From Eledone cirrhosa (lineage: Eukaryota), in contig OZ024743.1 of assembly GCA_964016885.1 (NCBI GenBank), forward strand, positions 332,444,001-332,508,000: a stretch of 64,000 bases of DNA, written 5' to 3'. Made by a program: the position numbers and the translations under genes. The notes beneath the pieces were generated by a model, which saw nothing but the letters and a program-made list of their open reading frames with translations, was not told the DNA's origin and searched no databases. Below are positions 21,987 through 43,605 of the stretch, one piece after another (positions within the stretch are counted from its first letter, which is position 1; every line of letters begins with the position of its first letter).

Positions 21987-22085
21987 GAAGTAATTCCATC
22001 GGAAAAGTCCAGGAAAAAAGAGTGCTCTATGTAAGCAACAGAGCTTAATTATTATTATTATGTAATAAACAACATAAGGCAATTA

Positions 22086-22146
22086 TTCCATTTACCAGTG
22101 GTTTCTTAAAAGCAAAAGGTTTTGCTTTCAATCCTCAGAATGAAAA
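22086..22146 (-). ncRNA. Type I hammerhead ribozyme (PLE-B distal copy)
   Basis: ttcatt-CTGAGGA-ttgaaagcaaaa/ttttgcttttaa-GAAA-cc act gg-TA-aatggaa: all three stems and the core are present; GUA triplet. Confidence 0.85.
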
Positions 22147-22447
22147 ATCCTGGTTTGTTTATTGAATATGGATTCTAAAAACGAAAATGCAATCTATATG
22201 AAAGTGAGGCTGGAAAAGGGAGAAGGAAAGGAAAAATAAAATAAAATAAAACTACACATGCAAACACACACAAAAAAACACAAAAGCATACTTACACACA
22301 CACACATATATACACATATAATTTGCACGCATACACATATACACATACACACATATATATATATATATATATATATATATATATATAAAATATTAAACAA
22401 ATAATGAATAAAACAATGAAACAGTTCCTTATATTAAACAAAAAAAG

Positions 22448-22599
22448 TTCATTATTTAACGATCGTTTCTAGGATATATATGTGTTAGAATTGGTATGCA
22501 TATTCAACAGATCTATGTACAAAATTATACAGAATTATACAAACTATCAAGATTAAATATACATACCAACATATATACGCCGTCTTCAGAAATAATGAA
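22448..22599 (-). ncRNA. Hammerhead ribozyme with extended stem II (inverted arm of PLE-A)
   Basis: Reverse complement of 33111-33264 with a 2-nt indel in stem II. Confidence 0.8.
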
Positions 22600-25500
22600 A
22601 TATATTTATTGATAATAACAACAATTCAAAATTTCAGGTCCGTTTGGGAACAAAATTGACCAATGAAAATACAAAAGGTTTTATGCAGTTCGGTGTGTGT
22701 ATATACATGTAACTACCCTTACACATATTTTACAAAAATGTATGCTCAACATGTATACGCATACCAAAAGGATGGATGCAAATACAAAATTTCAAGGTTA
22801 ATGTCTCTGTAAGTTTATAATGCACAGATAAGATGCGTATAGACACATAAATATGAAATAAGTGTATACACATATTCTCATACTCACACATATCCGTACA
22901 ATCACACACACGCGCGCGTATATGCATAAACATACACATAATTACGAACATACAAACACACACACACCCCCACTCACATATATATATATGTGGATATCAT
23001 AAGCACATGGATATTAATTCACTCACATAAACACTGCCACACACATTTAGATCAAGATACAGAAATTAGGTGGGAGGGGGGGGAGAGGTCAGTATTCAAC
23101 GGTTTGGGCAGACTGCTTATTATAGATGTATCTATAAACTAAGAAAATAAAAAATAAAAATTAAAAAGGAAAGAAAAGAAAAAGAAAAGAAAAAAGAAAT
23201 ATATCAAGAAAATATATATATATATATATATATATATACATACATACATATATATATATATATATATATATACATATATATAAACACACACATACATATA
23301 CACACATCCACACTTAGAACATACATACACACACATATATAAACATATACATATACACGCATACACACATATACACACATACATATAAATATATATATAT
23401 ATATATATATATATATATATATATATATACACACATATATACACATATAATCACACATACTATATAGACACACATATATATACACACATACACGCACATA
23501 TACATACACATACATACTTATATACATACAGATATACACATACATACCTATATATACACACAAATACATACATACATACATACATACATACACACAAATA
23601 CTTACGCATCCATATATCGGTATATACATACAAACACCACTACACTCTCACACAACTCAGACATACAAAGAAAAAGGTATATACCTATACACATATACAT
23701 ATACAAATAGAGATACATATACATATATATATATACATATATATACACATATATATATATATATATATATATATATACATACACATATACACACATATAC
23801 ATACATACACATACATACATGTACACACACATACATATACATACATACACACATACACACATACATATATAGTCATACACACACATACACCTACACGAAC
23901 ATACACATACACATATATAAAGATATATATACACACACACACATACACACACACACATATATATAAAATAAAGATATATATATATATATATATATATATA
24001 TATATATATATACATACATATACATACACACATACATAGACATATATGTACATACATAGACATACATACATACATATACACACATATATACATATATATA
24101 CACACATAGACACATACATACACACACAACATACATACACACACATATATACTCATACATAGAATTAGATATATATTCATACATACATACGCACTTACAT
24201 ATACTCATATATACAAATACATACGCATCCATATATGCGTATATACATACAAACACCACTACACCCTCACACAACTCAGACATACAAAGAAAAAGGCATA
24301 TACATATACATATATACACACATTAATAGAGATATATATACACACATATATATATATATATATATATACACATACATTTATATATATACACCCACACACA
24401 CATACAACCATAAACACACATACAAACACACACATACACATATATATACACATACATATATATACACACACACAAAAAACAGACATACACATATATATTT
24501 TTTTACACATATATATACACATATATATACATATACACACCCTCACATATACACACATACACATAAGTTATATTATAATAATAATAAATAATATATATAT
24601 ATATATATATATATATATATATATATACACATACGAATATAGACATATATACACACATAGATATACATATATATATACATATACACACACACACACACTC
24701 ACATATATATGTGCGCACACGTACATATATACACATACACACATATACACGTAAACACATACATGTGCATACATGCACATACACACATATACCCACATAG
24801 ATACGAAGATAGACATATAAATAGAGAGACATACATATATATACACACACATATATACATACATACATACACACATATATATATATATATATATATATAT
24901 ATATATATATATATATATATACATACACACATACACGCCCACGCACATATACACATATACATATATATATACATACACACATACACATACACATATATAT
25001 ACACACATGCATATATACACATATATATATACATACACACATATATATACACACAATCTTACATTCTTATTTGCATGCGCATATATGTATTTTTATATTC
25101 AGATATAAATACCCAAACATATATACACCTACCTACATATATATTCATACATACACGCTTACAAACACAGATGATAATAGTATGGGGGAAAGGGGGGGGT
25201 TGGAGAAGGGGATTATAGTAAATATATGTTTCAAGAAACATAGAATATTATCTGTATCTGGATCCAATGTATGTTTTTACATAGTTTCAGTGTTAGGAAA
25301 TACAAGAAATAAGGCAAAATTTATGCATTTCAAAATAAATAAGTATACCATTAATTATATGTTAACTAAACTAAAGATAGTTAACATATTGATTTCTAAG
25401 GTGTAAATTAGTTAGGTTTATAATATTTGAAGCAGAATTTTGAAGTTAAATAGTAGTAGAGTATTAATTATAGTATAACTAAATTAAAGTTAATAACGTT

Positions 25501-26308
25501 ATGGTATCAATATTAGGAAATGAATTTAGTAATAGGGAAAAAACAAATAAAGTATTACATCGGTAGTAGAATATAAATTATAGGTTAACTAAATTAAAAA
25601 TTATATATTAATTTCTATAGTATATGTTAATTAGGTATATAATAAATAAAACAGATATTGTATTTTATCAATAGCAGAATATAATTATATGCAAATAGAA
25701 ATCAAAATTAATACATATACATATACATATACATACACATATATATATATACACATATATATACATATATATATATATATATATATATATATATATACAC
25801 ATATACACACACATACACATACATATACATACATACATATACATATTTTTTCAAAAATTGCAAAGAATATATTAACTAGGTATACATCCAAAACACATCC
25901 CATTCTATGATTACATGACATTCTGCAATCCGTCTGTATAAGGATACTAATTTTAAGCCAATTAAATTAAATTTTAGGTTGACTAAATTTAAAACCAAAT
26001 TATAAATATATTTCTAAAATGTATATTAATTAGGTCTATAATACTAAAAATTATTTCTCTGTCATTGGATACACGATATTTTGTTATATTTTATCTGTAA
26101 AGGAATTTTAATAAAAGGTTTAAATAAATTAAAATTAATCTATAAATTAAATTACTAAGTATATATTAGTAATATTTAAATGTTTTTCACAATTTATGAT
26201 TACACAATATATTTTATATTCTCATCTGTAATAGAATTTTAATTAAATTAAATTTATAGGTTAACTAACATTTAAATTAAATTAATTTCTAAAATAATGT
26301 TATTAATT

Positions 26309-42532: not shown

Positions 42533-43066
42533 ACGTAAGATTTTCTATCGTTTCCTCTATATTTCCTTCTTCCCCCATCCCTTCCTAGTCCTTCCATCCC
42601 AGTTCTCCTTCTTTGTCGTCGTTCTTTTCACCTTCTCGCCCACCCCGAGGCAGCCCTTCGGTTCTCTGTAGCCTCAGTACCCCCACCCCCTATTCTATAG
42701 TTTAGCAGTACCAGTGAGAGATTTGATGATTGTGGTAGGGGAATAGTAACCAGAAATTGTGTTTTTTTATATTTTTAACATTCTTATTTTTCTATATAGA
42801 TTTACTCCATATAGATTTACTTATTGTTTCGACTTCCACCCCCTCCCCCTCTCTAGTACACTTCTCTTGACCTCTTATCCTTAGGATTCTGCTGTAGTTG
42901 TCACTTTCAACGCACGACTGGGTTTCCTCAACTCCCTCTCCCTCTTTCTTCTACTGGCAAGTTCAGCTACCCTTTCCTTCCACAAAATGCCATGATAGAA
43001 TTATGTGTCTCAACAACAAACTTTTGACCAATTCTTGTGACAATCACTTTTACCATATATGGAATT

Positions 43067-43162
43067 ACCCCCTGAGAAGCTCGGCTATTCATTTACCAGG
43101 ATAAAAATGTTCATTTAGTCCAGAATTAGCCGTCGAAACGGCTTGACCTCAGCCGTCGGGGT
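43067..43162 (+). ncRNA. Hammerhead-like motif, core CTGAGAA, long stem II, GUC triplet (PLE-C 3' repeat)
   Basis: acccc-CTGAGAA-gctcggctattc...gaattagccgtc-GAAA-cggct tgacctc agccg-TC-ggggt. Confidence 0.65.
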
Positions 43163-43320
43163 CCTACTCGTTCCTATATATATATATGTATATATATATA
43201 TGTATATATATATATATATGTATTGAAATTTCCGTTGAAAACAGAAAAGGTCATAGAAGTGAAGAGTGCTCTATGTAAGTACCAGAGCAAAATTTAATGT
43301 ATAAAAATCAATACAATATA

Positions 43321-43398
43321 ATTACCTCATTACCAGAGGTTTCCCGAATGAGGCGAATATGAAAGAAACGTCTTCATTCGTTCGTCAGACGAGGCAAT
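43321..43398 (-). ncRNA. Type I hammerhead in a solo PLE-B-related terminal fragment (~43223-43485)
   Basis: attgcctcgt-CTGACGA-acgaatga...tcattcgg-GAAA-cc tct gg-TA-atgaggtaat; 10-bp stem I with two G-U pairs; fragment flanked by (TA)n. Confidence 0.82.
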
Positions 43399-43605
43399 AT
43401 AAAACATGGCTAAATACTTGGAAAGTCTCATCAAGAAAAGCAAAAAAAAATTAATTATATATAAATATAGATAAAGGAATTACAATATATATATATATAT
43501 ATATATATATATATATATATATATATATATATATATATATATATATATATATATATGTATATATATGTATATATATATATACAGATATGTGTGTGTGTGT
43601 ATATA

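What the first reader, a model, noticed from the sequence alone, without database searches (positions are those of the whole stretch)
21987..43485. Three different PLE families all show 'sense + inverted arm' architecture, all in (TA)n, one nested in another
PLE-A sits in a (TA)n run of PLE-B's 3' region; the uninterrupted version of that site is preserved in B's inverted arm at 37050-37200. PLE-B splits a TA-containing minisatellite. PLE-C and solo fragments (43223, 59221) are TA-flanked. Because the elements carry (TA)n in their own UTRs, each insertion supplies new targets, a self-feeding loop that could help explain a TA-saturated genome. Two outward-facing 3' ends fit priming from both sides of a break in a palindromic (TA)n target (inference).
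Basis: partly seen in the sequence, partly recalled or inferred. Interest (0 to 1): 0.75.

Follow-up and report, generated by a model that had tools for sequence, protein, structure and literature searches.

The report
Two-ended Hydra Penelope insertions in (TA)n
Three jumping-gene families of a known Penelope type sit head to head in TA repeats here, one inside another; nearly every double-armed copy pairs one short end with one long end, which likely means both cut DNA ends start copying the same RNA, while the proposed TA-spreading loop is real but appears to be minor.

Summary
A (22385-33464), B (21987-37466, split by A) and C (38500-43177) are Hydra-clade Penelope-like elements (PLEs). 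(TA)n targeting and a head-to-head inverted arm are already published for this clade (Craig 2021, with an octopus family). Genome-wide, 136 of 138 paired ends abut (TA)n, against 4.8% background, and 78 of 119 sampled insertions have an inverted arm. The sharper result is that each family has two fixed 3' ends, short (S) and tailed (L). One arm is S and the other L in 69 of 72 sampled two-armed insertions, and in 32 of 33 family-A pairs from a coordinate-ordered list. Arms share haplotypes, and seven imperfect targets show 13-15 bp duplications. This fits both target ends priming one RNA at two sites, as suggested in vitro for a lizard PLE; one RNA versus two is not settled. The self-feeding loop is real but small: C carries no (TA)n, 0 of 69 sampled insertions sat in an A or B UTR, and about 4% of background TA runs lie inside these families. 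The scan noted the one-arm tail earlier in this genome (e1-10326545).

The parts
21808..21986 (.). Left half of the roughly 50-bp TA-containing minisatellite split by element B
21987..22387 (-). 3' end of B's sense copy: long (L, tailed) end at about 21987; hammerhead motif with core at 22138
22353..22386 (.). Left half of the B-UTR (TA)n run into which A inserted
22385..27258 (-). Element A inverted arm: 5'-truncated, short (S) end at 22385, includes the endonuclease part of the ORF (26360-27258)
27259..33464 (+). Element A sense arm: 5'-truncated RT-endonuclease ORF to 29411, about 3.9-kb microsatellite-rich 3' UTR, S site 33327, tail 33328-33464 ending at the L site
33114..33261 (+). Predicted hammerhead of A: core at 33121, long stem II, predicted cut after 33254 (mirror copy with core at 22589 on the minus strand)
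   Evidence: fold z -5.6
33462..33487 (.). Right half of the B-UTR (TA)n run
33474..36673 (-). Element B sense copy: 5'-truncated ORF in two frames (36696-35842 and 35936-35139), a second hammerhead-like motif near 34690 with a non-canonical cut triplet, and 3' UTR
36690..37466 (+). Element B inverted arm, short (S) end at 37466; holds the empty (TA)40 at 37091-37170 and the hammerhead core at 37378
37467..37653 (.). Right half of the minisatellite split by B
38500..40034 (-). Element C inverted arm, long (L) end at 38500 beside a 600-bp TA-rich tract; hammerhead-like motif with core at 38685
40041..40087 (-). 47-bp inverted piece of C's ORF at the junction of the arms
40089..43177 (+). Element C sense copy: near-full ORF broken into four frames (40157-42532), about 500-bp UTR deletion at 42690, short (S) end at 43177; hammerhead-like core at 43072 deviates from the canonical core
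43220..43484 (-). Solo 3' end of a fourth family (D) with a hammerhead motif (core 43388), TA on both sides; relatives in 4 other loci
59221..59281 (-). Solo short-end fragment of a C-related family between TA runs

Best explanation
A, B and C are three families of Hydra-clade Penelope-like retrotransposons inserted head to head in (TA)n, and almost every two-armed copy has one short and one long 3' end, likely because both cut target ends prime copying of one RNA at two fixed sites. Shown: family identity, (TA)n flanks, two fixed ends per family (tails of about 137, 72 and 80 nt), the one-S-one-L pairing, shared haplotypes of the two arms, and 13-15 bp duplications at seven imperfect targets. 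Inferred: the GIY-YIG nuclease nicks both strands about 13-15 nt apart and leaves 3' overhangs ending in ATA or TAT. Each overhang would pair with 2-3 matching bases at the S or the L site of the RNA, and two RT active sites (probably a dimer) would extend them. Both cDNAs run toward the RNA's 5' end and stop early; their 3' ends join, and each serves as template for the other's second strand. Each event would turn one TA run into two, and A and B also deliver TA runs in their UTRs, so nesting follows. This loop adds only a few percent of the genome's TA runs from these three families.
For: Clade motifs are present in full-length copies of all three families. The predicted fold of B (pLDDT 93.9) has telomerases as its top seven PDB matches. 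Pairing is S+L in 69 of 72 two-armed insertions (p 1e-17 against 50%) and in 21 of 21 small hairpins under 800 bp. It is S+L in 8 of 10 pairs of a further family E. In a coordinate-ordered list of exact family-A ends on 112.7 Mb, it is S+L in 32 of 32 outward pairs within 15 kb and 32 of 33 within 20 kb, where 43.5% is expected. The L arm is the longer in 40 pairs and the S arm in 29 (hand tally). In 18 of those 29 the S arm holds no whole copy of the tail, so the L arm cannot be a fold-back copy of it. Arms are identical over the terminal segment in 38 of 72 pairs and closer than the median unrelated arm in 65 of 70. A variable UTR TA run (7-75 nt over 62 arms) has the same length in both arms in 9 of 16 B insertions. 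In 4 of 7 long two-armed insertions with an extra inverted piece at the junction, the piece spans the partner arm's 5' end (0.17 expected), as in L1 twin priming on one RNA (PMC2837659). Pairs whose arms come from different templates break the rule in 3 of 4 cases, against 2 of 71 (Fisher p 0.0006). In vitro, a lizard PLE cuts and extends both strands, starts at two RNA sites that match the tail ends, and is predicted to be a dimer (PMC11167929).
Against: Three of 72 pairs break the rule: L033 and L079 (L+L, both multi-unit) and L042 (S+S, arms 9.5% apart). One family-E pair looks S+S, and one A pair 17.6 kb apart is L+L. About seven pairs have a TA interruption within 9-12 nt on one side only, so their duplication is shorter or has since mutated. 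Shared haplotypes would also result from two RNAs of one donor locus or from conversion between arms. Five insertions join an arm of one family to a foreign arm (L004, L048, L108, L114, L025), so two RNAs or later deletions can also build such joints, and the continuity of the L048 arm was not verified. In vitro the two start sites did not differ between strands (PMC11167929). L arms ending exactly at the S site were not clearly enriched. In 39 of 119 insertions there is no same-family inverted arm.
Confidence: 0.62

Rival explanations
1. Dual priming: two RNA molecules, usually from the same active donor, are copied from the two target ends. An asymmetric complex, or the order of the two nicks, forces one end to S and the other to L.
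For: Head-to-head joints between different families or subfamilies exist (L004, L114, L042, perhaps L048 and L108). In L004 the foreign arm is 99.6% like another copy, so it is young. Neither arm type is regularly the longer (40 against 29, p 0.23), which one RNA with a trailing enzyme might predict. The mechanism was proposed for L1 (PMC2837659).
Against: Different-template pairs mostly lose the S+L rule (3 of 4), which an imposed asymmetry would keep. Junction pieces sit at the partner's end in 4 of 7 cases.
Confidence: 0.25
2. Fold-back or self-priming: one cDNA, or an antisense template, folds back and copies itself. The second end is then set by nuclease cutting or repair. Self-priming on an antisense template was proposed for rotifer Penelope elements.
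For: Many small hairpins have both arms ending at nearly the same place (9 of 32 family-A pairs span 523-542 nt). Arms share sequence. The idea is proposed in PMC3846280.
Against: In 18 insertions the shorter arm carries a tail that the longer arm lacks, so it cannot have been copied from it. Long arms usually end at unrelated places.
Confidence: 0.08
3. One reading: TA-carrying elements seed their own targets, and this explains the TA-rich genome.
For: A carries 18 and B 10 TA runs. A is nested in B's UTR in the window and at L050, L063, L064 and L190, and family-E hairpins lie in B's UTR at L061 and L064. Hydra-like ORF matches cover 3.2% of random DNA. Penelope elements as microsatellite carriers are reported in shrimp (PMC7878876).
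Against: C carries none. No two-armed insertion (0 of 69) had A- or B-UTR flanks. Eight of 69 abut another A/B/C end, against 22 of 399 background runs (p 0.065). Only 24 of 629 background runs lie inside A/B/C arms. About 5,100 exact A tail ends could give at most a few percent of an estimated 4-5 million runs.
Confidence: 0.12
4. The inverted structures are assembly artefacts or later rearrangements of simple insertions.
For: Long inverted repeats and microsatellites are hard to assemble, and the three exceptions may be recombinants.
Against: The arms are asymmetric in a fixed way, differ by substitutions in the older family C, and are flanked by target duplications. In raw reads of a public run with the same species label as the best holder, 636 reads leave the element at the L site into (TA)n.
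Confidence: 0.03

Closest known systems
Hydra clade of C-terminal endonuclease Penelope-like elements (Craig et al. 2021, PMC8557442), including Hydra-1_Obim of Octopus bimaculoides and Penelope-13_HM
   Same: RT followed by GIY-YIG; RWK-type, DKT, CxCX5C, CxxC and CxH motifs; no CCHH; hammerhead near the 3' end; (TA)n targets; partial tandems; 5'-truncated inverted copy at the 5' end; tail often at one end only.
   Different: Units are longer (A about 6.7 kb, B 4.4 kb, C 3.5 kb, against generally under 3 kb), with microsatellite-rich UTRs in A and B. Tails are 72-137 nt against 30-40. The one-S-one-L rule is near strict here and was described there only as 'often'. Target duplications were often not discernible in microsatellite targets there (said of Naiad and Chlamys). 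The published hammerhead row of Hydra-1_Obim differs by eye from those of A, B and C; its full sequence was not compared.
PAc, Poseidon-clade PLE of Anolis (Frangieh et al. 2024, PMC11167929)
   Same: Cuts AT-rich DNA, extends both strands, has two internal RT start sites that bound the tail, and is predicted to be a dimer.
   Different: Different clade. No strand preference of the two start sites was seen in vitro, and priming was reported without homology, whereas all six A/B/C ends here carry 2-3 bases that match (TA)n.
L1 twin priming and dual priming (as described in PMC2837659)
   Same: The second target end primes cDNA on the same RNA (twin) or on a second RNA (dual), giving inverted pieces within target duplications.
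   Different: In L1 the second primer lands at variable internal places and the two pieces barely overlap. Here it starts at a fixed site 72-137 nt from the first, so both arms carry the 3' end.
Rotifer Penelope elements of Adineta vaga (Arkhipova et al. 2013, PMC3846280)
   Same: Head-to-head inverted ends, optional tail on one end, target duplications (8-10 bp).
   Different: Explained there by self-priming on an antisense template; (TA)n targets were not mentioned in the passages read.
Microsatellite-carrying transposons of penaeid shrimp (PMC7878876)
   Same: Young Penelope copies carry simple repeats to new places.
   Different: The carried repeat is not shown there to be the element's own target.

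Membership tests
Penelope-like elements (EN+) | Single ORF with a telomerase-related RT | tested here: met
   Open frames of 830, 714 and 784 aa in full-length copies. YRDD motif in all three. The fold of B is closest to telomerases. Pfam gave no hit for the seven window fragments, and a PDB sequence search gave none.
Penelope-like elements (EN+) | GIY-YIG endonuclease | tested here: met
   VY..YIG/YVG followed by conserved R, H, E and N in all three. This rests on motifs; one homologue carries PF01541, and the fold search listed no nuclease match.
Penelope-like elements (EN+) | Pseudo-LTR, tandem or inverted copies, tail | tested here: met
   Read-through tandems, arrays, 78 of 119 insertions with an inverted arm, and two fixed ends.
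Hydra clade | Endonuclease at the C-terminus | tested here: met
Hydra clade | RWK motif and DKT in place of DKG | tested here: met
   RWR (A), RWK (B), RWR (C); SDKT in all three.
Hydra clade | CxCX5C linker; CxxC and CxH around the conserved E and N; no CCHH | tested here: met
   One CxCX5C, one CxxC and one CxH in each; no conserved cysteine pair inside the GIY-YIG core in the alignment.
Hydra clade | Canonical hammerhead ribozyme near the 3' end | tested here: inconclusive
   Canonical motif in B. In A the motif has a long stem II. C's core deviates at one conserved base. Rfam showed no hammerhead among the 150 of 191 rows listed, which were microsatellite-driven. Cleavage was not tested.
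Hydra clade | Insertion into (TA)n | tested here: met
   136 of 138 paired ends; 3770 of 5101 exact A tail ends are followed at once by ten TA bases.
Hydra clade | Generally short (under 3 kb) | tested here: not met
   Units of about 6.7, 4.4 and 3.5 kb. The paper gives this as a tendency, not as a diagnostic.
Hydra clade | Placement in the Hydra branch of an RT tree | not tested
   No reference sequences of the named clades were loaded; membership rests on motifs.
Naiad / Chlamys | N-terminal endonuclease, DKA motif (Naiad) | tested here: not met
   The endonuclease is C-terminal and the motif is DKT.
Neptune / Nematis / Penelope-Poseidon | CCHH motif in the endonuclease, DKG motif | tested here: not met

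The most novel reading that the evidence does not exclude
Hydra elements integrate by a fixed two-ended reaction. One RNA with two set start sites is copied from both ends of a 13-15 nt staggered cut by two RT active sites, each primed by 2-3 base pairs as in telomerase, and the two cDNAs prime each other's second strand. The 'optional' tail of Penelope elements would then be the obligatory mark of which target end used which site, and the long-open origin of their inverted structure would be readable from genomes.
Probability: 0.5. Interest if true: 0.65.

Novelty: new member of a known kind. Interest (0 to 1): 0.4.

Why it matters
How Penelope-like elements build their tandem and inverted insertions, and why they favour microsatellites, is named as an open problem in PMC8557442, and the only in vitro system (PMC11167929) stops at first-strand priming. 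The near-strict S+L rule, the 13-15 bp stagger and the short TA matches give concrete predictions for that assay. Family A has many intact, nearly identical 830-aa copies that could supply the enzyme. The architecture itself and the (TA)n preference are known. Five literature searches showed no paper that counts the pairing, but earlier notes of this scan had seen it. For genome annotation, the small lopsided hairpins in TA repeats are truncated Hydra insertions, not separate elements.

Tried and rejected
(1) Pfam on seven window ORF pieces gave no family, and an alignment profile against PDB sequences gave no match. (2) Rfam listed only microsatellite-driven miRNA and snoRNA matches among the 150 of 191 rows shown. 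(3) Expression: no RNA holder listed; this is no evidence either way. (4) A search for A-to-G hyper-edited copies, which earlier notes use as single-molecule marks, gave 41 candidate windows. All or nearly all lay in TA/TG microsatellite alignments, judged from their positions, so the test could not be repeated on this young sample. (5) L arms stopping exactly at the S site (L002, L091, L119, L123, L043, L057) looked like collisions on one RNA, but hairpin centres in C spread over about 150 nt, so no enrichment is claimed. (6) A few 5' ends fall on the predicted hammerhead cut (L042, L065, L120, L144); not tested against chance. (9) A direct genome-wide count of paired ends could not be run; pairing by coordinates on 112.7 Mb stands in for it. 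(10) No empty-site comparison between individuals was run.
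Full report
1. Check of the observation. Self-comparison of the window and mapping to full-length copies from the same 3.0-Gb genome confirm three elements. A runs 22385-33464: an inverted arm of 4.9 kb joined at 27258/27259 to a sense arm, 98.9% alike. B runs 21987-37466 with its ORF on the minus strand, and A sits in the last (TA)n of B's 3' UTR. The same run is empty at 37091-37170 in B's inverted arm. It is 80 nt long there; the filled site has 35 + 27 nt, about 48 after removing a duplication, so the empty site marks the position only. 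That run varies from 7 to 75 nt across 62 B arms elsewhere. B splits a roughly 50-bp minisatellite. C runs 38500-43177 and is older: its ORF is in four frames and its arms are about 95% alike. The pieces at 43220-43484 and 59221-59281 are solo 3' ends of related families between TA runs.

2. What they are. Full-length copies encode 830, 714 and 784 aa, 42-46% identical to each other over the RT part. All three have the motifs that Craig et al. 2021 give for the Hydra clade: RW(K/R), DKT, a CxCX5C linker, CxxC and CxH, a C-terminal GIY-YIG and no CCHH. The model of B is confident (pLDDT 93.9), and its first seven PDB matches are telomerases. B has 1503 homologues among 7998 candidates scored, nearly all unnamed. 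Hammerhead motifs lie 20-73 nt upstream of the S end: canonical in B, with a long stem II in A, and with a deviant core in C. That paper's supplement lists (TA)n for 26 of 27 Hydra families, among them an octopus family and one with an inverted 5'-truncated copy attached. I did not identify the host; earlier scan notes call this genome octopus-type. Each family gave the maximum of 150 scored matches, and an exact 22-nt A tail end occurs 5101 times.

3. I fetched 40 of the 150 listed places per family, taking distinct loci from the top of each list, with 20 of the C places from a lower tie group. This favours young, endonuclease-bearing and two-armed copies. I added 40 extensions and 40 random 10-kb regions. 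Flanks: 136 of 138 outer ends of 69 two-armed insertions have a TA run of at least 10 nt within 30 nt, against 4.8% of background positions. Genome-wide, 3770 of 5101 exact A tail ends are followed at once by ten TA bases; the rest include tandem read-throughs and imperfect runs. In raw reads of a public run with the same species label as the best holder, 636 reads leave the element at that place into TA repeats. Architecture: of 119 insertions (two C loci are one array), 78 have a same-family inverted arm, 39 do not and 2 are undetermined (hand tally). Neither refutation holds.

4. The pairing rule. Each family ends at two fixed places, S and L, about 137 (A), 72 (B) and 80 (C) nt apart, and each place ends in 2-3 bases that match (TA)n. 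Both ends could be typed in 72 insertions: 68 of the 78 sampled, one further array and the window's three. In 10 the far end was interrupted, altered or not readable. Of the 72, 69 are S+L. The exceptions are two L+L multi-unit insertions and one S+S whose arms are 9.5% apart. Small hairpins met by chance in the loci are S+L in 21 of 21. A further family, E, gives 8 of 10, with one S+S-like pair and one aberrant end; five of these pairs were found through the L arm. As a check free of my locus choice, I paired the listed coordinates of 100 exact L ends and 47 exact S ends of A on the first 112.7 Mb of contig 1. All 32 outward-facing neighbours within 15 kb are S+L, and one L+L appears at 17.6 kb; 43.5% mixed pairs are expected.

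5. Mechanism. The L arm reaches further 5' in 40 pairs and the S arm in 29. In 18 of the 29 the S arm holds no whole copy of the tail, so the L arm was primed on its own template and is not a fold-back (hand tally). The arms come from one template or one donor: they are identical over the last 260 nt or less in 38 of 72 pairs, and closer than the median stranger in 65 of 70 comparable pairs. Of nine imperfect targets examined, seven show a 13-15 nt duplication and two are ambiguous because the flank is periodic. About seven other pairs limit the duplication to 9-12 nt or have mutated since. With both ends acting as primers, such a duplication means 3' overhangs of that length (inference). Seven long two-armed insertions carry an extra inverted piece at the junction, and in four it spans the partner's 5' end. 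This is the geometry of L1 twin priming on one RNA (PMC2837659). Five loci join foreign arms head to head. With L042, the four typed different-template pairs are homotypic in three, against 2 of 71 same-template pairs; the numbers are small and L048 is uncertain. Together with the in vitro behaviour of the lizard element PAc (both strands cut and extended, two start sites bounding the tail, predicted dimer), the most likely reading is one RNA copied from both target ends at two set sites. Two RNAs from one donor remain possible. The dimer was not tested here.

6. The self-feeding loop. It exists. A carries 18 and B 10 TA runs per unit, and A is nested in B's UTR at L050, L063, L064 and L190 as well as in the window. 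A split target should also leave two runs. But C carries none. None of 69 two-armed insertions had 500-bp flanks matching an A or B UTR (masking of low-complexity UTR lowers this test's sensitivity). Eight of 69 abut another A/B/C end, against 22 of 399 background runs (p 0.065). In 400 kb of random DNA, TA runs make up 3.7% of bases, and 24 of 629 runs lie inside A/B/C arms, mostly or all at one locus. Other Hydra families are common (Hydra-like ORF matches, A/B/C included, cover 3.2% of random DNA), and their UTRs were not measured. Penelope elements as carriers of simple repeats are already reported in shrimp.

7. Papers seen. PMC8557442: abstract, passages, sections 6, 11 and 15, supplement part 2 of 59 and two supplement look-ups. 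PMC11167929: parts 1-2 of 4. PMC13282606: part 1 of 3 and passages; it reports 31 recently active Penelope-like families in Octopus vulgaris. Passages only: PMC3846280, bioRxiv 10.64898/2026.07.22.740005, PMC2837659 and PMC7878876. The one-end tail is in print qualitatively. Searches showed no count of the pairing, but the library lacks most subscription papers, including the older Penelope literature.

8. Verdict. The finding is real and is a known kind: new families of the Hydra clade with the published architecture and target. The added value is quantitative: the S+L rule on full-length families, the duplication length, the exclusion of simple fold-back, and a ceiling on the TA loop. The scan had noted the one-arm tail before in this genome (e1-10326545). 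Interest 0.4.

Noticed in passing
L025, upstream of oriented position 1414; same array in L206: A family-A copy is joined head to head to a tandem array with a period of about 466 bp that has a hammerhead motif in each unit (retrozyme-like). It may be co-insertion by the Hydra enzyme or a later deletion.
   Followed up: partly
L004, L114, L108, L048: Head-to-head joints between arms of different Hydra families (E with A, E with C, others).
   Followed up: partly
G000:C1:437198575-437213187 (L101, L102); G000:C6:49528822-49562317: Tandem arrays of five endonuclease-bearing units closed by one inverted arm and still S+L. Neighbouring C units differ at 1 of 3528 nt, against 9 of 3528 from the closest other locus compared, as expected from repeated copying of one circular or tandem RNA.
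   Followed up: partly
G000:C1, first 112.7 Mb; L050: Nine of 32 family-A pairs span 523-542 nt, which puts both arms' stops near the start of the hammerhead core.
   Followed up: partly
L075: A two-armed B insertion in an AT-rich but non-(TA)n site, with a clear 15-nt target duplication.
   Followed up: yes
window 34600-34730 (minus strand): B has a second, degenerate hammerhead-like motif just after its ORF, in all B copies examined.
   Followed up: partly
A ORF, about residues 470-570: About 100-aa low-complexity N/T/K-rich insert between RT and endonuclease, absent from B and C; it recalls the N-rich inserts of rotifer Penelope elements (PMC3846280).
   Followed up: no
window 59314-59420: 107-bp near-perfect hairpin directly after a TA run; not identified.
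   Followed up: no
window 9345-21438 and 14268-17000: A 32-bp satellite array interrupted by a decayed non-LTR retrotransposon (RT ORF on the minus strand).
   Followed up: no
window 1-3578: 67-bp tandem satellite, at least 53 copies.
   Followed up: no
window 57162-58481, 43746-44507, 61836-62534: RT ORF with a PHD-like finger (Pfam RVT_1) and two partial relatives, RTE-like by recall.
   Followed up: partly
window 46192-46552, 58844-59220, 62566-62925: Three copies of a roughly 360-bp repeat, SINE-like by recall, each starting at a TA run, so TA flanks are not peculiar to the Penelope elements.
   Followed up: no
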